This document shows positions 1 through 44,533 of a stretch of 44,533 nt of DNA, piece by piece. A program made the position numbers and the translations under genes. The notes below the pieces were generated by a model that searched no databases, was not told the origin of the DNA, and saw only the letters and a program-made list of their open reading frames with translations. The DNA is from a virus. Each line of letters begins with the position of its first letter. Within the stretch, counting starts at the first letter, position 1. Location: IMG/VR virus record IMGVR_UViG_3300014039_000008; one strand, written 5' to 3'.

Positions 1-58
1 ATTTGACACACAGATCATCGCCGAGCTGCTGCTTGATGCGGCGGATGCGCTGGAGGGC
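1..58. repeat. Terminal overlap of the contig: 1-58 is identical to 44476-44533 (circular closure; unique length 44,475 bp)
   Basis: Read directly: ATTTGACACACAGATCATCGCCGAGCTGCTGCTTGATGCGGCGGATGCGCTGGAGGGC occurs at both ends. The CDS starting at 44393 continues in phase at base 59. Confidence 0.95.
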
Positions 59-367
59 AAGGCGGAGAGGCCGGAGCCGGTGACAAACGGAGACCGCATC
101 CGGGCCATGACGGACGAGGAGCTTGTGCGCTCACAGCTGAGCGAGGCGTTTTGCGATATGATCCCGCAGGAGGATTGTCTGGGGAGCAACAGCACATGCA
201 GGGAGTGCCTGATCAAATGGCTGGGGAGCCCGGCGGCGCTGCCGGAGCGCGACGCGCTGCAGAGAGCATACGAGGGGACAAGACAGATCGCCGATCGCAG
301 GGCATGGGACGAGCCGTCGCGGACGATGGCGGACATCTGCGGACAGGAGGACAAGGATGGGCAATAG
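2..367 (+). CDS. 3' portion of the junction-spanning CDS that starts at 44393 (149 codons in total); small Cys-containing phage protein, function unknown
   Basis: Same frame as track ORF 80..367, open from base 2, stop TAG 365-367. Contains CLGSNSTCRECLIKWL. Composition is plausible compared with the R/P/A-rich alternative frames. Confidence 0.7.
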   Translation, partial: FDTQIIAELLLDAADALEGKAERPEPVTNGDRIRAMTDEELVRSQLSEAFCDMIPQEDCLGSNSTCRECLIKWLGSPAALPERDALQRAYEGTRQIADRRAWDEPSRTMADICGQEDKDGQ

Positions 368-4275: not shown

Positions 4276-4842
4276 ATGGGCCGCAAAAAGGCTTACAAGC
4301 CCGCAGCGCTGCAGCGCGCGGTACGGGAATATTTTGCAGCGCTGCGCTACCGGGAGCCGGTATACCGCGAGGAGCCGGTACTTGACGACGACGGGCAGCC
4401 GGAGTTTGACCGGTACGGACACCCGGCGACGCGCTTTGTGCGCGTTGTGACGGAGGACGGGACGCCTGCCAGCAGGACGAGCTGGGTCAGCCCGCCGACG
4501 ATCACGGGGCTTTGCGGGAGGCTTGGCATCAGCCGCCAGACGTGGAGCAAGTATCTGGCGGCAGAGGACACGCACGACATCTGCGACGAGGCCAAGCGGG
4601 TGATCGAGACCTACCTGCAGGAGAGGCTCGAGGACAAAAACTCCGCGGCGGGCGCAAAATTTGCGCTGCAGGCAAACTACGACTGGCGTGAGCGCCGGGA
4701 GATCAGCACGGACGCGCCGACGAGAGCCGCGATCGCAGGCGGCGAGATGACGATGGACGACAAGCTGGCGCTGCTGCGAGAGATCCAGGGCATGCAGCTG
4801 CCTGAGACGGAGGGGACACATGACAGCGACGGTACTGTTTGA
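4276..4842 (+). CDS. terS: terminase small subunit
   Basis: ATG 4276 after GGGAGGG. HTH-like PPTITGLCGRLGISRQTWSKY is followed by GAKFALQANYDW, a pattern typical of small terminases. Confidence 0.75.
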   Translation: MGRKKAYKPAALQRAVREYFAALRYREPVYREEPVLDDDGQPEFDRYGHPATRFVRVVTEDGTPASRTSWVSPPTITGLCGRLGISRQTWSKYLAAEDTHDICDEAKRVIETYLQERLEDKNSAAGAKFALQANYDWRERREISTDAPTRAAIAGGEMTMDDKLALLREIQGMQLPETEGTHDSDGTV

Positions 4843-7093
4843 GCGGCTGCGGCAGCTCAAGCCGGTCCCGGCGGAGATCAACGACACGATCCTGCTGGAC
4901 TGGCTCAATCAGGTGGAGGGGCAGATCCTCCACGAGATCTTTTTGCTGGCGTTGAGCGAGATCACGCCGTATGCGGCGACGCCGACCGAGGCGCTGGCCG
5001 CGCCGTATCCCTACGACGGGATCTATCTGCTGTGGATGGAGGCGCAGGTCGACTTTGCCAACGGCGAGTATGAGCGCTACACCAACACGATGCAGCGGTA
5101 CAACACCGCGTGGAACGATCTGGCGCGGCACATGGCAAAGTGCATCCGTCCGGTCTACGGCAGGGCCGTGGAGCAGGGCTACTACCTCAGCGCCTACGGG
5201 ATCGCCAAGGCGCACGGCTACACCGGGACGGAGGAGCAGTGGCTGGCCAGCCTGCAGGGCGCAGCGGGCGCTCCGGGCAAGGACGGCAAGCCTTTTAACT
5301 GGCGCGGGGCGTGGAGCTCCACGGAGACCTATGCGTATCTCGATGCCGTGGAGCACAGCGGGAGCTGCTACGTCTGGACGGACGAGGATGACAGCACGGC
5401 CGGGGACGAGCCGGGCGTGGACGAGCTCTGGGAGCTGTGCGCGGCCAAGGGTGCAAAGGGAGACACCGGCGCGGCAGGCGCAGCGGGCCCGCAGGGCCAG
5501 ACCGGTCCCGCAGGACCGAAGGGCGACACCGGAGAGACGGGAGCCAAAGGCGACACGGGAGCGACAGGACCGCAGGGGCCGAAGGGAGACCCCGGCGACG
5601 ACTACACGCTGACCGAGGCCGACAAGACGGAGATCGCGGGCAAGGTCACGGCGGACGGACTGGAATTTGAGCTTGCGGACATGCCGTCCGGCGGGACGGA
5701 TCTGCCGCAGGTGCTGAGCAACCTCGGGACGGCGATGACCGACGCGGCCGAGGGAGCGATCCCCATCGCGGACGGCGAAAACGGGTGGACGACGAAAACG
5801 GTACTCGGGGAATATAAAAGCTCCGACCAAGCGACGATAGATGAAATCCCGTCGGCAAAGTGGCTCACAACTTATTTGCGGAACGAAGGCCCACTTGCGG
5901 ATATAACCTACTGGGACGATTTTCTGAGCAATGCCAGCAATATATTTGGCGCAATATGCCGGGGCGATGTGAGAAGTGGCAGCGGTAGTAATATGACGTT
6001 CCCGGTGTTGATATACAGTTCCTCGATCAATAGATGGGATAAATACTTCCGCGCGATTGACGCGACCGGCGCGATTTGGCGAGTAACCGTTGACCTGCGA
6101 TACGGCACGGCAACTGAGACAAAAAAGCGCGAGAGCGTCCCGGTCAGCGCGGCCGCAGACGCCGGGAAGCTGCTGCAGGTCGGCGCGGACGGCGCGGCCG
6201 AGTGGGGCGACAAGCTGCCGACAGCCCTCAAAAACCCGCAGAAGCTGAAATTCACCGGCGCTGTTACCGGCGAATACGACGGCAGCACCGAGAAGACCAT
6301 CAATATCCCCGCGGGGGGCAGCGACGTTCCGGCCGTGCTCGGCAATCTGGGCGCAAAGATGGGGGAGTCTGAGGCAGGCGCAGTCCCTGTTTACGCCGGG
6401 GACGAGGCGTGGACCATCGAAAAGATCATCATGGCATACACCGGAGACAACGATCTGAGCGGGTACATCCCGGACACGGCGTGGGTGGTGGCGTATATGG
6501 CAGCGCAAAAGGCGCTGCTCAAGCTGCTGCCGGACAGCGCGGCCGCAGACGCCGGGAAGCTGCTGCAGGTCGGCGCGGACGGCGCGGCCGAGTGGGGCGA
6601 CAAGCTGCCGACAGCCCTCAAAAACCCAAAGGCGCTGACATTTACGGGGGCGGCGACGGGGACTTACGACGGATCGGAGGCGCTGGCGGTCAACATCCCC
6701 AACGGGTATCAGCTGACGGACGCCGACAAGCAGGCAATCGCCGCGCTGGTGGCGGCGGATGGCGTGGAATTTACGCTGGCGGACATGCCCACGGGCGGCT
6801 CCGGCGGGTCGCTGAAGGCGTTGAGCAGCGTGGTCTCGTACATCGGCATCCCGGCGGCGGACCTGCCGGAAAACGGCGTTGTGTGGGTGAGCTTCGGGGC
6901 GGGCGAAAACATGGAGCTGTACACCGGCACGATCACGATACAGGACGCCGGAATCGCGACGAGCGACATGCTTGCGATCACAAACGGGACGGTAAACCCG
7001 CTCAATCAGGTCGCGTGGATCAGCGACGGAATCGCATTTTACGGGATGACGACGTCGAACTACCGCGGCGTGTACATGGTCGTAAGCGGATAG
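4820..7093 (+). CDS. tail fibre / appendage protein with collagen-like repeats and duplicated C-terminal modules (757 aa)
   Basis: 16 Gly-X-Y triplets. Repeated SAAADAGKLLQVGADGAAEWGDKLPTALKNP modules. Position in the late block. Confidence 0.8.
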   Translation: MTATVLFERLRQLKPVPAEINDTILLDWLNQVEGQILHEIFLLALSEITPYAATPTEALAAPYPYDGIYLLWMEAQVDFANGEYERYTNTMQRYNTAWNDLARHMAKCIRPVYGRAVEQGYYLSAYGIAKAHGYTGTEEQWLASLQGAAGAPGKDGKPFNWRGAWSSTETYAYLDAVEHSGSCYVWTDEDDSTAGDEPGVDELWELCAAKGAKGDTGAAGAAGPQGQTGPAGPKGDTGETGAKGDTGATGPQGPKGDPGDDYTLTEADKTEIAGKVTADGLEFELADMPSGGTDLPQVLSNLGTAMTDAAEGAIPIADGENGWTTKTVLGEYKSSDQATIDEIPSAKWLTTYLRNEGPLADITYWDDFLSNASNIFGAICRGDVRSGSGSNMTFPVLIYSSSINRWDKYFRAIDATGAIWRVTVDLRYGTATETKKRESVPVSAAADAGKLLQVGADGAAEWGDKLPTALKNPQKLKFTGAVTGEYDGSTEKTINIPAGGSDVPAVLGNLGAKMGESEAGAVPVYAGDEAWTIEKIIMAYTGDNDLSGYIPDTAWVVAYMAAQKALLKLLPDSAAADAGKLLQVGADGAAEWGDKLPTALKNPKALTFTGAATGTYDGSEALAVNIPNGYQLTDADKQAIAALVAADGVEFTLADMPTGGSGGSLKALSSVVSYIGIPAADLPENGVVWVSFGAGENMELYTGTITIQDAGIATSDMLAITNGTVNPLNQVAWISDGIAFYGMTTSNYRGVYMVVSG
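5450..5596 (+). repeat. collagen-like Gly-X-Y repeat region within the fibre gene
   Basis: GAKGDTGAAGAAGPQGQTGPAGPKGDTGETGAKGDTGATGPQGPKGDPG read from the translation. Confidence 0.9.
6145..6237 (+). repeat. 93-bp perfect direct repeat, copy 1 (inside the fibre gene)
   Basis: Identical to 6535-6627. The 390-nt offset equals 130 codons. Confidence 0.95.
6535..6627 (+). repeat. 93-bp perfect direct repeat, copy 2 (inside the fibre gene)
   Basis: Identical to 6145-6237. Confidence 0.95.
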
Positions 7094-9483: not shown

Positions 9484-9615
9484 ATGATCTACTTTGTACC
9501 GGGGATGTACATCGAGGAGGGGATGCGGTACACCGATGGGGTGCGGCGGTATATCGCGATCCGGTCTGGGCAGGCGGAGAGCCTGACGGACGAGACTTAT
9601 TTTGAGGCGCTTTAG
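9484..9615 (+). CDS. small protein (43 aa), XkdX-like by position
   Basis: ATG 9484 after AGGAGGG. Lies between the fibre genes and the lysis genes. Confidence 0.4.
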   Translation: MIYFVPGMYIEEGMRYTDGVRRYIAIRSGQAESLTDETYFEAL

Positions 9616-40805: not shown

Positions 40806-41107
40806 ACTGGATGAGCAGCGCGGCGCAGATCGAGCAGGCCCGGCTCGATGAGCTGAACCGCAAGGCGGAGGCCAGAGCGCAGGCCCGCAGATGCCGGGAG
40901 GCGGAGCAGCGGGCGGCAGTGGCCGAGCAGAGGGCAAAACAGGCGCAGCAGGACGCGGACCGGAAGGTCGCGATGCTGGTGCTGGCAACGGCCGCGATGG
41001 CCTGCATGGTCCTCGGGGTGTGCGTGATGCGCGCCTCGGCATGGATCGGGGCCGGTCTGCTGGGCGCGGCGGCGCTGCTGGTGAGGTGGATCCCGCGTGA
41101 GGGATGA
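40802..41107 (+). CDS. coiled-coil protein with C-terminal TM helices (101 aa)
   Basis: ATGA overlap. Contains VAMLVLATAAMACMVLGVCV and WIGAGLLGAAALLV. Confidence 0.6.
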   Translation: MNWMSSAAQIEQARLDELNRKAEARAQARRCREAEQRAAVAEQRAKQAQQDADRKVAMLVLATAAMACMVLGVCVMRASAWIGAGLLGAAALLVRWIPREG

Positions 41108-41462
41108 GTGTGTCTGCCGCGCGTGCCGGTACCTCCGCGAGGAGGACGCCGGGCGCGATGCAAAATTTTACCGGTGCGGGGTGACGGGGCGGGTGATCGA
41201 GCACGCTCCGCTCTGCGCCAAATGGCCGAGCACGCCGCTGCGGCGCTGCCCGGCCGCCGCAATCAGAAAGGAGCTGCACAGCATGGAGAAGAGGAACAAA
41301 TGGGAGCCCGGCGAGCGGGTGTTGGCGGTGTGCACGGGGACGTGGCACTACGGCGTCGGCGTGGTCCGCAGCGGGCCGGACAAAAACAACCGGTACGTCG
41401 TGGAGTTTGACCGCGACGGCCTGCGCAGCGGGTGCCGGGTGATCGGGAGGCCGCAGGAATGA
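41097..41462 (+). CDS. Cys-rich (zinc-finger-like) N-terminus plus a small beta domain (121 aa)
   Basis: GTG start overlapping the upstream gene. CVCRAC...RCGV...LCAKW. An internal ATG at 41283 with its own AAAGGAG could mean two products. Confidence 0.55.
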   Translation: MRDECVCRACRYLREEDAGRDAKFYRCGVTGRVIEHAPLCAKWPSTPLRRCPAAAIRKELHSMEKRNKWEPGERVLAVCTGTWHYGVGVVRSGPDKNNRYVVEFDRDGLRSGCRVIGRPQE

Positions 41463-42154
41463 GCGTATGCGACAAGCGATGCGAGGCCTGCCCGTATCCG
41501 GACTGCATCAACGACGAGATGGATCTGGACGACTACCAGGAGGCTGACGCAAGGGACCGGGCGCTCGGGACGGTGCGCAAGGCAAAGGACCCGCCACCCG
41601 TCGGGGGCAACACGGCCAAAAAGGAGGCGGCGCGGGAGCGCAGCCGGGAGAGGGCTAAGGAGCGTTACGCGGAAAAGCGGGAGGAGAGACTCGCCTACTT
41701 AAGGAAATGGCACGCAGAGCATCCGGAGTGGCGCAAGGAATACTATCAGCAAAACCGGGAGCGCCTGCTGGCGCAAGCGAGGGCGTACCGGGAAACTCAC
41801 AAAGCCGCAGTGCGGGCTTATAAGAGGGCCTATTATCAGGCCAATCGGGATAATTACCGCGCCTATCGTAAGGCGCACCGGGAGGAGATTAACGCCCGGG
41901 AGCGCGAGAGATACGACAAGCGCATGCGGGAGCACGGTCAGGGAGACGCGGAGCAGCAGGGCCGGGAGAAGGACTACCAAAGAGCCTACTATCTGGCCCA
42001 TCAGGAGGAGCTCCGCGCGAAAGGCCGGGAGTACCGCGAGAAGAACCGCGAGCGGCTGAAGGAGCAGAAACGGGCGTACTATCTGGCCCATCAGGAGGAG
42101 CTCCGCGCCAAGGCGCTGGCGCGGTACTACAGGAAGAAAGGGGAAGGGGCATGA
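41459..42154 (+). CDS. Cys-cluster plus tandem R/Y/E-rich helical repeat protein (231 aa)
   Basis: ATGA overlap. CDKRCEACPYPDC is followed by about 7 repeats of the AYY..N.E....Y type. A 32-bp perfect DNA repeat occurs at 41987-42018 and 42077-42108. Confidence 0.7.
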   Translation: MSVCDKRCEACPYPDCINDEMDLDDYQEADARDRALGTVRKAKDPPPVGGNTAKKEAARERSRERAKERYAEKREERLAYLRKWHAEHPEWRKEYYQQNRERLLAQARAYRETHKAAVRAYKRAYYQANRDNYRAYRKAHREEINARERERYDKRMREHGQGDAEQQGREKDYQRAYYLAHQEELRAKGREYREKNRERLKEQKRAYYLAHQEELRAKALARYYRKKGEGA

Positions 42155-42507
42155 CGGTATACATTGCCGGTGGGATCACCGGCGTCGAGGACTACAAGGC
42201 GCGGTTTGCGGCCGCGAAGCGGATGCTTCTGCGGGAGGAACAGGACCGGACGGACAGCACGGCGCGGTATTATGGCTCACCGCGGGCGGACAAGGTGCTG
42301 AATCCGGCGGAGCTGCCGGAGGACTGGCCGGGCAAGGTCTACATGGACGTTTGCCTTGCGATGATCAACAAGGCCGACCTCGTGGTGTTTTTGCCCGGCT
42401 GGGAGCGCAGCCGCGGGGCAAGCCTCGAGATGCAGTATTGCCGGTACCAGAGCAAGGCGGTGTACAAGATTGCAGAGGAGGAGCTTGAGGGGTGGATGAG
42501 AAGCTGA
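42151..42507 (+). CDS. DUF4406-like / nucleoside 2-deoxyribosyltransferase-like protein (118 aa)
   Basis: MTVYIAGGITG...DLVVFLPGWERSRGASLEMQY matches the YIAG.. and GWE.S.GA..E pattern of that family, from memory. Confidence 0.65.
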   Translation: MTVYIAGGITGVEDYKARFAAAKRMLLREEQDRTDSTARYYGSPRADKVLNPAELPEDWPGKVYMDVCLAMINKADLVVFLPGWERSRGASLEMQYCRYQSKAVYKIAEEELEGWMRS

Positions 42508-43334
42508 CTCATCTCAGCGTTTTTTCCGGGATCGGTGGGCTTGATCTTGCGGCCGAATGGGCCGGGTTTACGACCGTCGGGCAGTGCGAAATGGCAGATT
42601 ACCCGACGGCGGTGCTGGAGAAGCACTGGCCGGACGTCCCACGCTGGCGGGATATCCGTACCCTGACAAAGGAGAGTTTTTATGAGCGTACCGGACTGGG
42701 AACAGTTGACGTTATATCCGGAGGATTCCCCTGCCAGCCGTTTTCCGTGGCCGGAAAGCAGCGAGGAAAGGAAGACGCGCGGTTTCTGTGGCCTGAAATG
42801 TGCCGCGTTATCCGGGAGCTTAGGCCGCATTGCGTCGTCGGCGAGAACGTACCTGGAATCATCAAGATTGCCGCCCGGCAGGTGGTCGAGGATCTGGAGC
42901 ACGCAGGTTATCACGTCGTCGTGCTGCAATTTGAGGCTGCGGCTGTCGGCGCTTGGCACCGGCGGGCAAGATGCTTTTTTGTGGGGATCGACGATCTATC
43001 CGACGCCGAAAGCATCGGGCAGCAAGGGCTCTGGGCCACTGGGGAGCCGGAGCGCGGAGCACGACCTCCGGCGGAAAAACCTGAAAGGCTGCGTCCTGTT
43101 TGCGACGCCATGCCGGGGAGACGCGACCGGGACGCACGGCGGCTGGAATCACAGGAGCTTGCGGACGGACGTCAATGGGCAGCTGAACCCGGAGTGGACA
43201 GAGTGGTTAATGGGCTTCCCTGTCGGGTGGAGCGCATTAGGGCCCTCGGCAATGCGGTCGTACCGCAGCAGGCATACCCGATCTTCCGCGCGCTCGCGGA
43301 GGAACTGACAAGGAGGATTGACAATGGACGTTAA
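42492..43334 (+). CDS. dcm: DNA (cytosine-5)-methyltransferase; the formal ORF is intact but the conserved middle part is encoded in the +1 frame (apparent double frameshift)
   Basis: Frame 0 contains FSGIGG, GGFPCQPFS, ENV, RRARCFFVG and GNAVVP. Frame +1 (about 42987-43240) contains TIYPTPKASGSKGSGP and LNPEWTEWLMGFPVGW. Confidence 0.8.
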   Translation: MDEKLTHLSVFSGIGGLDLAAEWAGFTTVGQCEMADYPTAVLEKHWPDVPRWRDIRTLTKESFYERTGLGTVDVISGGFPCQPFSVAGKQRGKEDARFLWPEMCRVIRELRPHCVVGENVPGIIKIAARQVVEDLEHAGYHVVVLQFEAAAVGAWHRRARCFFVGIDDLSDAESIGQQGLWATGEPERGARPPAEKPERLRPVCDAMPGRRDRDARRLESQELADGRQWAAEPGVDRVVNGLPCRVERIRALGNAVVPQQAYPIFRALAEELTRRIDNGR

Positions 43335-43509
43335 GGATCTGATCGAGCGGCTGCGGGAAGCTGCGGGCGCTCTGGACGGGACCGCGCTGCGCGTCAGCAC
43401 GAGCAAATTTGACACACAGATCATCGCCGAGCTGCTGCTTGATGCGGCGGATGCGCTGGAGGGCAAGGCGGAGAGGCCGGAGCAGGAGGAGATGGAGGCA
43501 TGGATATAG
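43324..43509 (+). CDS. truncated paralogue (61 aa) of the N-terminus of the junction-spanning gene
   Basis: ATG 43324 after AGGAGG. Its first 53 codons correspond to those of the gene starting at 44393 (identical at DNA level only over the 3' 100 bp). It then diverges and stops inside the rSAM gene start. Confidence 0.5.
   Translation: MDVKDLIERLREAAGALDGTALRVSTSKFDTQIIAELLLDAADALEGKAERPEQEEMEAWI
43384..43483 (+). repeat. 100-bp perfect direct repeat, copy 1 (upstream flank of the radical-SAM cassette)
   Basis: Identical to 44453-44533 plus 59-77. Weaker similarity extends upstream to about 43304 / 44368. Confidence 0.95.
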
Positions 43510-44411
43510 GAGACCGGAGAATCGCGAGGGTGTTCCCACGGCGGACGTCAGCGACGCCGCACGACGAGTTGGCTTTTGTGGGCCCCATAACGATGGAGAC
43601 GATCGCAGCCATAACGCAAGCGGAGCCGTCGGAAATCCATATATCCGCAACGTTTACGTGGGATTTGCCGGATGTGGATGAGCTTTATGAGAGCTATTCC
43701 GTTTTTGGTGTCCCAGTTGAGGTCGGAGGGCCCGCCTTCGGTGATCGGATGGGTGACTTTGTACCGGGGATGTACATCCGGGAGGGGCTTGTATTTACGT
43801 CGAGGGGATGCAACAAAGATTGCTGGTTTTGCAGCGTCCCAAAATGCTGTAACGGGGAAATTAGAGAGCTGCCGATCGTGGACGGCTGGAACATACTCGA
43901 TGATAACGTGCTTGCAACATCTATGGAGCACTTCCGCGGCGTGTGCAACATGCTCAAGCGGCAGCCGGAGCGCGCCGTATTTTCTGGGGGACTTGAGCCG
44001 AGCCTGTTAACAGCAGAGCACGCAAAGCTCCTGGCGGGAGTGCGGCCGAAGCGCATATACACGGCATACGATACAAAAGACGATTTAGAGCCGTTGCGGG
44101 CGATGGGAAGACTGCTCCGGGAAGTAGGGATAACAGAGCGATCTAATACACTGGCCTGCTATGTGCTCGTGGGATATGAAGGAGATACATTAGATGATGC
44201 AGAGAAGCGGTGTAGAGAGGCGATGGAGGCGGGCGCTATGCCATTTGCCATGTTATATCGCGATGAGTCAGGGCGAGCACCCGACAAAGAGTGGAGGAGA
44301 TTCCAGCGGGAGTGGGCTAACAGGATAATTGTCGGGCGGAAACTAAAGGATTACCGGGACGCTCGCGGAAGAACTGAACAGGAGGGCTGTCAATGGACGT
44401 TAAGGATCTGA
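43500..44411 (+). CDS. radical SAM superfamily enzyme, specificity unknown (303 aa)
   Basis: CxxxCxxC cluster motif in TSRGCNKDCWFCSVPK. ATG after GGAGGAG. Lower GC than the flanks. Confidence 0.85.
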   Translation: MDIGDRRIARVFPRRTSATPHDELAFVGPITMETIAAITQAEPSEIHISATFTWDLPDVDELYESYSVFGVPVEVGGPAFGDRMGDFVPGMYIREGLVFTSRGCNKDCWFCSVPKCCNGEIRELPIVDGWNILDDNVLATSMEHFRGVCNMLKRQPERAVFSGGLEPSLLTAEHAKLLAGVRPKRIYTAYDTKDDLEPLRAMGRLLREVGITERSNTLACYVLVGYEGDTLDDAEKRCREAMEAGAMPFAMLYRDESGRAPDKEWRRFQREWANRIIVGRKLKDYRDARGRTEQEGCQWTLRI

Positions 44412-44533
44412 TCGAGCGGTTGCGGGATGCTGCAGCCGCTCTGGACGGGACTGCGCTGCGCGTCAGCACGAGCAAATTTGACACACAGATCATCGCCGAG
44501 CTGCTGCTTGATGCGGCGGATGCGCTGGAGGGC
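44393..44533 (+). CDS. 5' portion of the junction-spanning CDS (continues at base 59)
   Basis: ATG 44393 after CAGGAGGG. MDVKDLIERLRDAAAALDGTALRVSTSKFDTQIIAELLLDAADALEG. Confidence 0.7.
   Translation, partial: MDVKDLIERLRDAAAALDGTALRVSTSKFDTQIIAELLLDAADALEG
44453..44533 (+). repeat. 100-bp perfect direct repeat, copy 2 (downstream flank of the radical-SAM cassette; continues at 59-77)
   Basis: Identical to 43384-43464, and onward across the junction. Confidence 0.95.

What the first reader, a model, noticed from the sequence alone, without database searches (positions are those of the whole stretch)
43304..44533. Radical-SAM gene is a cassette bracketed by ~180-bp direct repeats that duplicate the 5' end of the neighbouring gene
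ORF 43500-44411 carries the canonical CxxxCxxC motif (SRGCNKDCWFCS). It is flanked by two copies of the same sequence, 43304-43483 and 44368-44533 continuing at 59-77. The distal 100 bp are identical (43384-43483 = 44453-44533 + 59-77). The proximal ~80 bp differ at scattered sites (CGGCTGCGGGAAGCTGCGGGCGCT versus CGGTTGCGGGATGCTGCAGCCGCT). The first 53 codons of the 149-codon junction-spanning gene therefore exist twice. One copy is a truncated 61-codon ORF (43324-43509) and the other is the true 5' end at 44393. The cassette is less GC-rich than its flanks (45-58% per line by hand). This looks like insertion by homologous recombination with a relative, and the repeats should allow precise loss. 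The enzyme's roughly 100-aa N-terminal domain and its substrate are unknown.
Basis: seen in the sequence. Interest (0 to 1): 0.75.

Follow-up and report, generated by a model that had tools for sequence, protein, structure and literature searches.

The report
Repeat-flanked radical-SAM gene insertion in phage
A gut phage picked up an uncharacterised radical-SAM enzyme gene from a relative by recombination inside the neighbouring gene, which left a 193-bp duplicated scar on each side; this is a clear but ordinary example of phage mosaicism.

Summary
Two direct repeats (43291-43483; 44360-44533 continuing at 59-77) bracket an intact 303-aa radical-SAM gene. All 11 mismatches lie in the first 93 nt, and the last 100 nt are identical. 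The window is a circular 44,475-bp genome with a 58-nt end overlap.

The same 1,299-nt unit is 100% identical in at least 12 independent contigs, including k=119 MEGAHIT contigs that span each repeat. It is not an assembly artefact.

Relatives with 99.2-99.5% identical flanks carry C5-methylase followed by an intact gene X, with no radical-SAM gene. Other relatives carry N6-methylase, the radical-SAM gene and X, with no duplication. Copy 1 is 100% identical to the resident allele; copy 2 carries another allele.

The structure therefore looks like a recombination scar in a methylase/X hotspot: one illegitimate join at X codon 53/54 plus one homologous exchange, or equivalently a Campbell-type integration.

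Precise loss was not seen. The predicted deletion product is absent from 15 billion proteins. One 1,069-nt circular contig is equivocal.

The enzyme belongs to a large uncharacterised phage family (a Rossmann-like N-domain plus a radical-SAM core). It often sits next to DNA methylases and PAPS-reductase-like genes. Its substrate is unknown.

The parts
42492..43334 (+). C5 cytosine DNA methyltransferase gene (280 aa). Its last 11 codons and stop lie inside repeat copy 1.
   Evidence: PF00145 E 9e-36, phrog_363 E 5e-76, TIGR00675. The C-terminus ...YPIFRALAEEL... is conserved in L066, L001 and Rani gp50.
43291..43483 (+). Direct repeat copy 1: junction J (43291-43323, the methylase 3' end plus ribosome-binding site) followed by codons 1-53 of X. 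This is the resident allele.
   Evidence: It is 100% identical in DNA to the C5MT-J-X junction of L103, L104 and L106, which have no radical-SAM gene.
43324..43509 (+). X', a truncated 61-codon copy of X (N-domain of 53 aa plus an 8-aa foreign tail QEEMEAWI). Its stop overlaps the radical-SAM start by 10 nt.
   Evidence: The exact protein is found on 12 contigs, always followed by the radical-SAM gene.
43384..43483 (+). The 100-nt stretch that is perfectly identical in both copies (R100). It contains the inferred homologous crossover, or a converted zone.
   Evidence: The last allele-diagnostic mismatch is at 43383 and the copies diverge at 43484.
43484..43499 (+). Left breakpoint: 16 nt of donor sequence carrying the radical-SAM Shine-Dalgarno site (AGGAGGAG). 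There is no homology to X beyond this point.
   Evidence: No relative fetched shares this 16-mer upstream of its radical-SAM gene.
43500..44411 (+). Radical-SAM gene (303 aa): Rossmann-like N-domain (~1-95) plus a partial TIM-barrel core with C104/C108/C111 and G163-G164-x-E166. The last ~17 codons are read from junction J in a third frame.
44360..44533 (+). Direct repeat copy 2 (continues at 59-77): junction J of the incoming allele plus codons 1-53 of the functional X gene.
   Evidence: Its junction J is 36/37 identical to the methylase 3' end of L001 and close to the J that ends the radical-SAM gene in L003 and L078.
44393..44533 (+). 5' part of gene X (149 aa in all; continues at 59-367 across the circular junction).
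   Evidence: The exact protein P0121 is on 12-13 contigs.
1..367 (+). Rest of gene X (1-58 repeat 44476-44533; stop codon at 365-367). From position 70 onward it is 99.2-100% identical to the cassette-free relatives.

Best explanation
The locus is a recombination scar, not a dedicated mobile element. The phages of this group are uncultured human-gut phages; relatives of the radical-SAM gene occur in Oscillospiraceae and other Clostridia MAGs.

In these phages the interval between a DUF4406 gene and the modular gene X is a hotspot. It holds nothing, an N6 methylase, a C5 methylase, an N6 methylase plus the radical-SAM gene, or a C5 methylase plus small zinc-ribbon genes.

A resident genome of the type C5-methylase, junction J, X met a relative of the type radical-SAM, junction J, X. 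An illegitimate join linked X after codon 53 (a domain boundary) to a point 16 nt upstream of the radical-SAM ATG. A homologous exchange within or after the shared 100 nt of X restored the resident backbone. A single-crossover (Campbell-type) integration of a 1,069-bp circle would give the same product.

The result is X'(1-53), the radical-SAM gene, J, then an intact X. The upstream repeat carries the resident allele and the downstream repeat carries the incoming allele up to the crossover.

Shown here: the anatomy, the allele assignment, the cassette-free and donor-type relatives, and the stability of the arrangement across samples.

Inferred: the order and mechanism of the crossovers. It is also inferred that the radical-SAM gene is expressed from the early operon through its own Shine-Dalgarno site and/or by coupling to X'. 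Its proposed role is to use a [4Fe-4S] cluster and SAM to modify a nucleic-acid-related or defence-related substrate, as an accessory partner of the phage DNA-modification genes.
For: Repeat anatomy.

Independent assemblies: the 1,299-nt unit is 100% identical in contigs from many samples and two assemblers. It is internal in the 44-kb contigs L071 and L072. MEGAHIT k=119 contigs cross copy 1 into the cassette (L085, L087, L088) and cross from the cassette through copy 2 into X (L094, L097).

Cassette-free relatives: L099, L100 and L101.

Resident allele: L103, L104 and L106 are identical to copy 1 through GGCCGGAGC.

Donor-type arrangement without a duplication: L003, L077 and L078 (N6MT, radical-SAM, J, X), sharing the same radical-SAM/J fusion but with three different X N-domains.

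Modularity of X: the N-domain, linker and C-domain are shuffled among homologues.

Hotspot variability.

No mobility machinery: the cassette has no promoter, terminator, meaningful inverted repeats, Rfam match or second gene.

The enzyme looks intact: every invariant residue of the family is present, and the AlphaFold2 model has a mean pLDDT of 87.

Gene neighbours: among 46 distinct IMG/VR loci, PAPS_reduct lies upstream in 7 and downstream in 7, a C5 methylase upstream in 6, N6_N4 methylase upstream in 2, and ASCH downstream in 5.

Dispensability: an in-frame-deleted 184-aa form occurs in two samples.
Against: The exact donor was not found. No contig shows the radical-SAM gene followed by J and the incoming X allele without X', and the 16 nt at the left join match no relative. 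One-step, two-step and pre-existing-duplication histories therefore cannot be separated.

All cassette-bearing contigs are clonal (at most 1 mismatch in 1,299 nt, apart from 6 mismatches at the end of contig L084). Selection on X' or on the repeats cannot be assessed.

The 1,069-nt circular contig L076 could mean the unit is more dynamic than a passive scar.

The functional inference for the enzyme rests only on neighbourhood and fold. There is no significant match to any characterised radical-SAM subfamily.
Confidence: 0.75

Rival explanations
1. The 1,069-bp unit (cassette plus one repeat) is an actively cycling, recombinase-less cassette. It loops out through the 100-nt identical repeat as a circle, or amplifies in tandem in concatemers, and re-enters related phages by single-crossover recombination in the 5' end of X.
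For: L076 is a MEGAHIT k=119 contig of 1,188 nt with a 119-nt terminal overlap. That makes a 1,069-nt circle joining the copy-2 proximal part, R100 and the cassette start, which is the junction expected for an excised circle or a tandem copy. The same sample (ERZ27300223) also holds a cassette-free allele contig, L101. The allele pattern of the two repeats is exactly what a Campbell-type integration predicts.
Against: There is only one such contig. A low-coverage de Bruijn loop carried over from a smaller k could produce it. The reciprocal product, X with the copy-1 N-terminus, is absent from about 15 billion proteins, and P0121's 90% cluster has a single member. All the other junction-spanning contigs show the integrated form. 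The window encodes no ERF-type annealing protein like those of its relatives.
Confidence: 0.12
2. The duplication is an assembly artefact: a collapsed or mis-threaded repeat, or a chimera of two strains.
For: The window itself breaks inside the repeat, and its 58-nt end overlap occurs three times in the window. With k below 102 the graph cannot tell the integrated form from an empty genome plus a circle.
Against: At least 12 contigs from different samples, made with SPAdes and MEGAHIT, give the identical arrangement. In two 44-kb contigs it is internal. The k=119 contigs exceed the 100-nt identical stretch and span both junctions.
Confidence: 0.02
3. The duplication is retained because it is useful. 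X' (the stand-alone 53-aa N-domain) has a function of its own, or serves as a translated leader that couples expression of the radical-SAM gene to the strong X start signals.
For: X' keeps the native ribosome-binding site and start of X. The breakpoint coincides with the N-domain/linker boundary, where relatives swap modules. The X' stop overlaps the radical-SAM ATG by 10 nt. X' is intact in all 12 contigs.
Against: All contigs are clonal, so intactness carries no information. No natural stand-alone N-domain protein was found among 204 X homologues; the shortest is 109 aa. The radical-SAM gene has its own AGGAGGAG site 8 nt upstream of its ATG. In relatives the gene is expressed without any X'.
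Confidence: 0.1

Closest known systems
Phage genome mosaicism by illegitimate plus relaxed homologous recombination at gene or module boundaries (lambdoid and mycobacteriophage literature; from my own knowledge, not verified here)
   Same: A novel joint lies at a gene or domain boundary. A short conserved junction sequence is shared by different upstream genes. Close relatives differ by presence or absence of an accessory gene. The inserted gene has lower GC than the genome.
   Different: Here the scar is unusually legible: a 193-nt flanking duplication with two alleles and a visible crossover point. A truncated, still translatable copy of the target gene has also been left behind.
Campbell-type single-crossover integration (duplication-insertion)
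   Same: The insert is flanked by direct repeats equal to the homology region. Each repeat is a hybrid of donor and recipient alleles, switching at one point. The predicted circle has the length of one repeat period (1,069 bp), and a contig of that form exists (L076).
   Different: No replicon or selectable circle is known. The circle itself would first have to arise by an illegitimate event. The only evidence for a circle is one short-read contig.
Phage 'morons' (accessory gene with its own promoter and terminator, inserted between two genes)
   Same: A single accessory gene of deviant GC content is present in some close relatives and absent in others.
   Different: No promoter-like or terminator-like site lies within or flanking the cassette. 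The gene is inserted inside a gene, not between genes, and reads in the operon direction.
Radical-SAM enzymes with an N-terminal B12-binding-like Rossmann domain (COG1032 'Fe-S oxidoreductase' type, AprD4 6fd2) and methylthiotransferases (RimO, MiaB)
   Same: The CxxxCxxC motif follows the first core strand directly ('TSRGC..C.FC'). A GGxE SAM motif and a small Rossmann-like domain in front of the core are present. The best radical-SAM fold hits are AprD4 (probability 1.00, TM 0.47) and 500-aa phage COG1032-like proteins. The best sequence hits are RimO, TM_1862 and MiaB (E 0.003-0.02).
   Different: The protein is about 200 aa shorter. There is no TRAM or SPASM domain and no second cluster-binding Cys triad in the N-domain. 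No B12-binding domain match reaches threshold. No characterised member is detectably related beyond the cluster loop.
PHROG 9298 'radical SAM domain protein'
   Same: The only library family that matches with significance (E 4e-20, residues 97-290).
   Different: The family has no tested function, and the match does not cover the N-domain.

Membership tests
Radical SAM superfamily | CxxxCxxC motif that binds the [4Fe-4S] cluster | tested here: met
   C104, C108 and C111 are invariant in alignments of 41 and 80 homologues.
Radical SAM superfamily | Glycine-rich SAM-binding 'GGE' motif and a partial (beta/alpha)6 TIM-barrel core | tested here: met
   G163-G164-L-E166 is conserved. The AlphaFold2 model has pLDDT 87 with alternating strand-helix units. 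Foldseek hits TIM barrels and the radical-SAM enzymes AprD4 and LAM at probability 0.99-1.00.
Radical SAM superfamily | Pfam PF04055 at or above its gathering score | tested here: inconclusive
   The window protein scores 21.1 bits against a cut-off of 29.5 (E 4e-4). 54 of 80 family members hit PF04055 at E<=0.01, with a best E-value of 1e-8.
Class B (cobalamin-dependent) radical SAM enzymes | An N-terminal cobalamin-binding domain recognisable by PF02310 or the TIGR B12-rSAM models | tested here: not met
   PF02310 scores 17.8 bits against a cut-off of 32.1, and only 1 of 80 members matches. The TIGR04072 and TIGR04014 hits are confined to the Cys loop, at about 12 bits against a cut-off of 360. 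The domain is about 95 aa with four strands.
Methylthiotransferases (MiaB/RimO) | An N-terminal UPF0004 domain with a second Cys triad, plus a C-terminal TRAM domain | tested here: not met
   The N-domain has no conserved Cys, the protein ends about 20 residues after the core, and similarity is limited to about 30 residues around the cluster loop.
Known anti-phage defence or viperin-like radical SAM enzymes (PADLOC) | A match to a PADLOC model | tested here: not met
   No family matches at E<=0.1.
Moron | Its own promoter and terminator flanking the inserted gene | tested here: not met
   No sigma-70-like promoter was found in 41000-44533. The only terminator-like sites lie at 42494-42518, outside the cassette. 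The consensus scan may miss promoters of Clostridia type.
Transposon, IS element or integron cassette | A transposase or integrase, terminal inverted repeats or an attC site, and a short target-site duplication | tested here: not met
   The cassette holds one gene. No inverted repeats mark its ends: the two pairs found are internal to the direct repeats. The duplication is 193 nt.
Duplication-insertion by single-crossover or unequal recombination | Direct repeats that equal a stretch of the target gene, with donor and recipient alleles switching at one point | tested here: met
   Copy 1 is the resident allele (100% identical to L103, L104 and L106). Copy 2 carries 11 allele differences, all 5' of position 43384. 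The two copies are identical after that point.
Duplication-insertion by single-crossover or unequal recombination | Existence of the reciprocal products (an excised circle and a precisely restored target) | tested here: inconclusive
   There is one 1,069-nt circular contig, L076. The restored X protein is not in the collection.

The most novel reading that the evidence does not exclude
The 1,069-bp unit may be a recombinase-less 'hitch-hiking' cassette that cycles between related gut phages through a circular intermediate, using the conserved 5' module of gene X as its landing pad. Its cargo would then be the founding member of a new radical-SAM family that works with phage DNA methylases or PAPS-reductase-like enzymes to make, or defeat, a nucleic-acid modification.
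Probability: 0.1. Interest if true: 0.7.

Novelty: new member of a known kind. Interest (0 to 1): 0.35.

Why it matters
This is an unusually clean natural record of how a phage gains an accessory gene. The recipient allele, the incoming allele, the cassette-free relatives, the donor-type arrangement and the crossover window are all identifiable in public metagenomes.

It also points to an uncharacterised phage radical-SAM family. The family has about 4,850 homologues and about 1,160 clusters at 50% identity, and its genes sit repeatedly next to DNA-modification genes. That makes it a reasonable candidate for a new nucleic-acid-modification or counter-defence activity.

The mechanism of insertion itself is textbook mosaicism and would not surprise a specialist.

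Tried and rejected
Assembly artefact: rejected after the exact-protein look-ups and contig comparison.

Transposon, integron or homing element: rejected, because the cassette has no second ORF, no terminal inverted repeats and no Rfam hit.

Moron: rejected, because no promoter or terminator was found.

Assigning the enzyme to a known subfamily failed in every search. NCBIfam gave only ~12-bit hits and PADLOC gave none. PDB sequence searches with the single protein and with two profiles gave E>=0.003, confined to the Cys loop. Foldseek against the PDB gave no hit with E<=0.001. BFVD gave only generic COG1032-like phage proteins. Two literature searches found nothing relevant.

Searching for the donor failed. 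The incoming-allele 42-mer has no match in IMG/VR. The left-junction 41-mer occurs in the metagenome collection only in a contig of the same lineage.

The window carries no PAPS-reductase-like partner and no ERF.

The 30/32-nt match between the radical-SAM gene (43756-43787) and the 43-aa ORF 9484-9615 was followed up. That ORF is a widespread lysis-module gene present in cassette-free phages, so it is not part of this event. The match itself remains unexplained.

The idea that L099 is a precise-excision derivative was rejected. Its X gene carries 81 extra nt and a divergent 34 nt that are absent from both window copies.
Full report
**1. The observation**

The window is a circularly permuted complete contig. 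Its first 58 nt repeat its last 58 nt, so the true length is 44,475 bp.

The repeat finder and an ungapped comparison show a direct repeat. Copy 1 is 43291-43483. Copy 2 is 44360-44533 and continues at 59-77.
- There are 11 mismatches, all within the first 93 nt.
- The last 100 nt (43384-43483) are identical in both copies.
- The copies part at 43484.

The repeat begins 33 nt upstream of the ATG of the duplicated gene. It therefore contains the last 11 codons of the C5 cytosine methylase gene (42492-43334; PF00145 E 9e-36), the ribosome-binding site, and codons 1-53 of gene X.

- Copy 1 yields a 61-codon ORF, X' (43324-43509).
- Copy 2 starts the intact 149-codon gene X (44393-44533 plus 59-367).
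- Between them lies the 303-codon radical-SAM ORF (43500-44411).
- The unique segment between the repeats has 55% GC against 62% for the genome. Four other regions of the genome are as low.

**2. It is not an artefact**

Exact-sequence look-ups of the radical-SAM protein, X' and X found them together on at least 12 contigs. These come from different ENA and Logan samples and from two assemblers (SPAdes and MEGAHIT).

A 1,299-nt stretch covering both repeats and the cassette is 100% identical in nearly all of these contigs. The exceptions are one mismatch in L082 and six at the end of contig L084, and all 11 inter-copy differences are kept.

In two 44-kb contigs the locus is internal. NODE_149 has a length of 44,530, which equals 44,475 plus a 55-nt overlap.

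MEGAHIT contigs built with k=119, which is longer than the 100-nt identical stretch, cross both junctions.
- L085, L087 and L088 run from the copy-1 proximal part through R100 into the cassette.
- L094 and L097 run from the cassette through copy 2 into X.

**3. What the relatives show**

(a) Cassette-free relatives. L099, L100 and L101 are 99.5% identical to the window over 1,460 nt upstream and 99.2-100% identical over 1,431 nt downstream. They carry the C5 methylase, junction J and an intact 176-aa X, with no radical-SAM gene. Their X matches copy 1 up to about 43449. It then has 34 divergent nt plus 81 extra nt that neither window copy contains. They are alternative alleles, not excision products.

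(b) The resident allele. L103, L104 and L106 carry the C5 methylase, J and a 111-aa X. The DNA of J plus the first 53 codons is 100% identical to copy 1, right up to GGCCGGAGC. Copy 1 is therefore the resident allele. L105 has the same X behind an N6 methylase.

(c) The donor type. L003, L077 and L078/L079 carry DUF4406, an N6 methylase, the radical-SAM gene (89-93% identical) and then X, with no X' upstream. In all of them the radical-SAM gene ends in the same ~33-nt sequence J that ends the C5 methylase gene, read in a different frame. J encodes the conserved methylase C-terminus ...RALAEEL... Behind the radical-SAM gene it is therefore a relic. Downstream of J these three relatives carry three different X N-domains.

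(d) Other states of the same interval.
- L001 has three small zinc-ribbon ORFs between the methylase and X.
- L102 has lost the methylase except for J.
- L118 has a mixed N-domain allele.
- X homologues shuffle the N-domain, linker and C-domain freely.

The interval from DUF4406 to X is thus a recombination hotspot. Both J and the 5' module of X are recurrent joints.

**4. How the structure arose**

Relative to the resident type, the window has an extra 1,069 bp. This consists of 16 nt of foreign sequence carrying a Shine-Dalgarno site, the radical-SAM gene, J of the incoming allele, and X codons 1-53 of the incoming allele.

Copy 2 differs from copy 1 only 5' of 43384. That is the pattern expected if the two copies derive from two alleles and a homologous exchange occurred inside or after the shared 100 nt.

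The left joint (X codon 53/54 next to the radical-SAM upstream region) has no homology, so it was illegitimate. It lies at the N-domain/linker boundary of X.

The same product would arise from Campbell-type integration of a 1,069-bp circle carrying the 5' module of X. These histories cannot be separated, because the exact donor was not found.

The cassette has no promoter-like or terminator-like site, no terminal inverted repeats, no RNA family match and no second gene. Nothing suggests a dedicated mobility function.

**5. Loss of the cassette**

The repeats should in principle allow deletion. However, the predicted restored X (copy-1 N-terminus plus the rest of X) is not among about 15 billion catalogued proteins. 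The 90% cluster of the window's X also has a single member.

One contig is intriguing. L076 (MEGAHIT k119, 1,188 nt) has a 119-nt terminal overlap. That makes it a 1,069-nt circle joining the copy-2 proximal part, R100 and the cassette start. This is the junction of an excised circle or of a tandem duplication. The same sample also contains the cassette-free allele contig L101.

It could also be a graph loop formed at low coverage. Read mapping would decide.

**6. The enzyme**

The protein belongs to a large family with no characterised member that I could find.
- There are 4,852 hits in the 5.8-billion-cluster search.
- There are 1,159 clusters at 50% identity with E<=1e-3.
- Typical length is 275-290 aa.

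Invariant residues include C104, C108, C111, D134, N136, D191 and R237, plus the GGxE motif. The window copy has all of them. Only its C-terminal tail is replaced by J-encoded residues.

The AlphaFold2 model is confident, with mean pLDDT 87 and pTM 0.83. It shows a four-stranded Rossmann-like N-domain (about residues 1-95) followed by a partial TIM barrel.

Foldseek finds no close structure.
- The best radical-SAM match in the PDB is AprD4 (probability 1.00, TM 0.47).
- In BFVD the best matches are 500-aa phage COG1032-like proteins.

Sequence profiles reach only the cluster loop of RimO, MiaB and TM_1862 (E 0.003-0.02). Pfam Radical_SAM is below threshold for the window protein but matches 54 of 80 members. 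NCBIfam and PADLOC give nothing useful.

One homologue carries an intein with an HNH endonuclease at the Cys motif. Two samples carry an in-frame-deleted 184-aa form, so the gene is dispensable in some lineages.

In 46 distinct IMG/VR neighbourhoods the adjacent genes were as follows.

| Family | Upstream | Downstream |
|---|---|---|
| PAPS-reductase-like | 7 | 7 |
| C5 methylase | 6 | 1 |
| N6/N4 methylase | 2 | - |
| ASCH | - | 5 |
| DUF551 | - | 3 |

Relatives occur in Oscillospiraceae and other Clostridia MAGs from the human gut.

My best guess is an accessory enzyme of the phage's DNA-modification or counter-restriction island. The basis is neighbourhood and fold only, and my confidence is low. 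The substrate is unknown.

**7. Verdict**

The cassette interpretation is right in outline, but it needs four corrections:
- One join was illegitimate.
- The mismatches are allelic, not divergence since the duplication.
- The junction includes a recurrent methylase 3' end.
- Precise loss has not been demonstrated.

This is a well-documented instance of ordinary phage mosaicism carrying an uncharacterised radical-SAM gene. I rate the interest as moderate to low (0.35) and the novelty as a new member of a known kind.

Noticed in passing
window 42682-43308 (+), inside the C5 methylase gene 42492-43334: A 208-codon ORF lies in the +1 frame of the C5 methylase gene and looks like a conserved overprinted gene. 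It hits phrog_1008 (E 7e-19). Its homologue is annotated as gp51, 'g50 internal gene', in the low-GC Paenibacillus phage Rani, and it is open in Lacticaseibacillus phage R23.9. The alt-frame proteins align over their full length (E 8e-14, including GQLNPxWxExLMGFPxGW). The methylase-frame proteins align only in their N-terminal and C-terminal parts. tblastn hits 76 phage records. The ENA and Logan gene calls mostly pick this ORF instead of the methylase.
   Followed up: partly
L076 (ena:ERZ27300223:k119_13291), 1-1188: This MEGAHIT contig has a 119-nt terminal overlap, giving a 1,069-nt circle that equals exactly one repeat period (copy-2 proximal part + R100 + radical-SAM cassette). It could be an excised circle, a tandem copy or a graph loop. 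The same sample also holds the cassette-free allele contig L101.
   Followed up: partly
window 9484-9615 (+) and 43756-43787: A 43-aa ORF with a good ribosome-binding site lies between the tail-fibre-like gene and the Amidase_2 endolysin. It shares 30 of 32 nt (peptide FVPGMYI.EG) with the radical-SAM gene. The ORF is widespread in ~39-kb relatives that lack the radical-SAM gene. The match is far beyond chance but is unexplained.
   Followed up: partly
L078 3587-4141 and L079 2902-3456: In two samples the radical-SAM gene of N6-methylase-type relatives carries an internal deletion, giving 184 aa instead of 298. The start and the J-encoded end are kept.
   Followed up: no
L102 207-1010: The DUF4406 ORF is 151 aa instead of 118 and runs into the 3' end of the C5 methylase gene (J), directly followed by X. 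The methylase has been deleted, leaving only its last codons.
   Followed up: no
protein P0247 (550 aa): A radical-SAM homologue is interrupted by an intein with an HNH endonuclease domain. The homology resumes at query residue 106, next to the CxxxCxxC motif.
   Followed up: no
L001 3163-4089: In a relative, three paralogous small zinc-ribbon ORFs (91, 108 and 154 aa, with N-termini of the '(E/D)YI(E/S)R(E/D)(A/V)AI' type) occupy the slot between the C5 methylase and X that the radical-SAM gene occupies in the window.
   Followed up: no
window 4820-7093 (+); repeats 6140-6282 and 6530-6672: A 757-aa collagen-repeat tail-fibre-like protein contains an internal 143-nt duplication (88% identity). 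This is an ordinary domain repeat, not a diversity-generating element as far as I checked.
   Followed up: partly
window 41432-42154 (+); repeats 41807-42111: A 240-aa basic protein upstream of DUF4406 has three copies of a ~59-nt unit encoding the motif (K/R)AYY(Q/L)A(N/H)(R/Q)... It gives a weak PHROG hit to an HNH endonuclease family.
   Followed up: no
window 43345-43372 and 44414-44441: Each repeat copy contains an imperfect palindrome (GAGCGG.TGC...GCAGCCGCTC). It pairs better in copy 2 (9 of 10 positions), and it lies in codons 8-17 of the X N-domain. Its significance is unknown.
   Followed up: no
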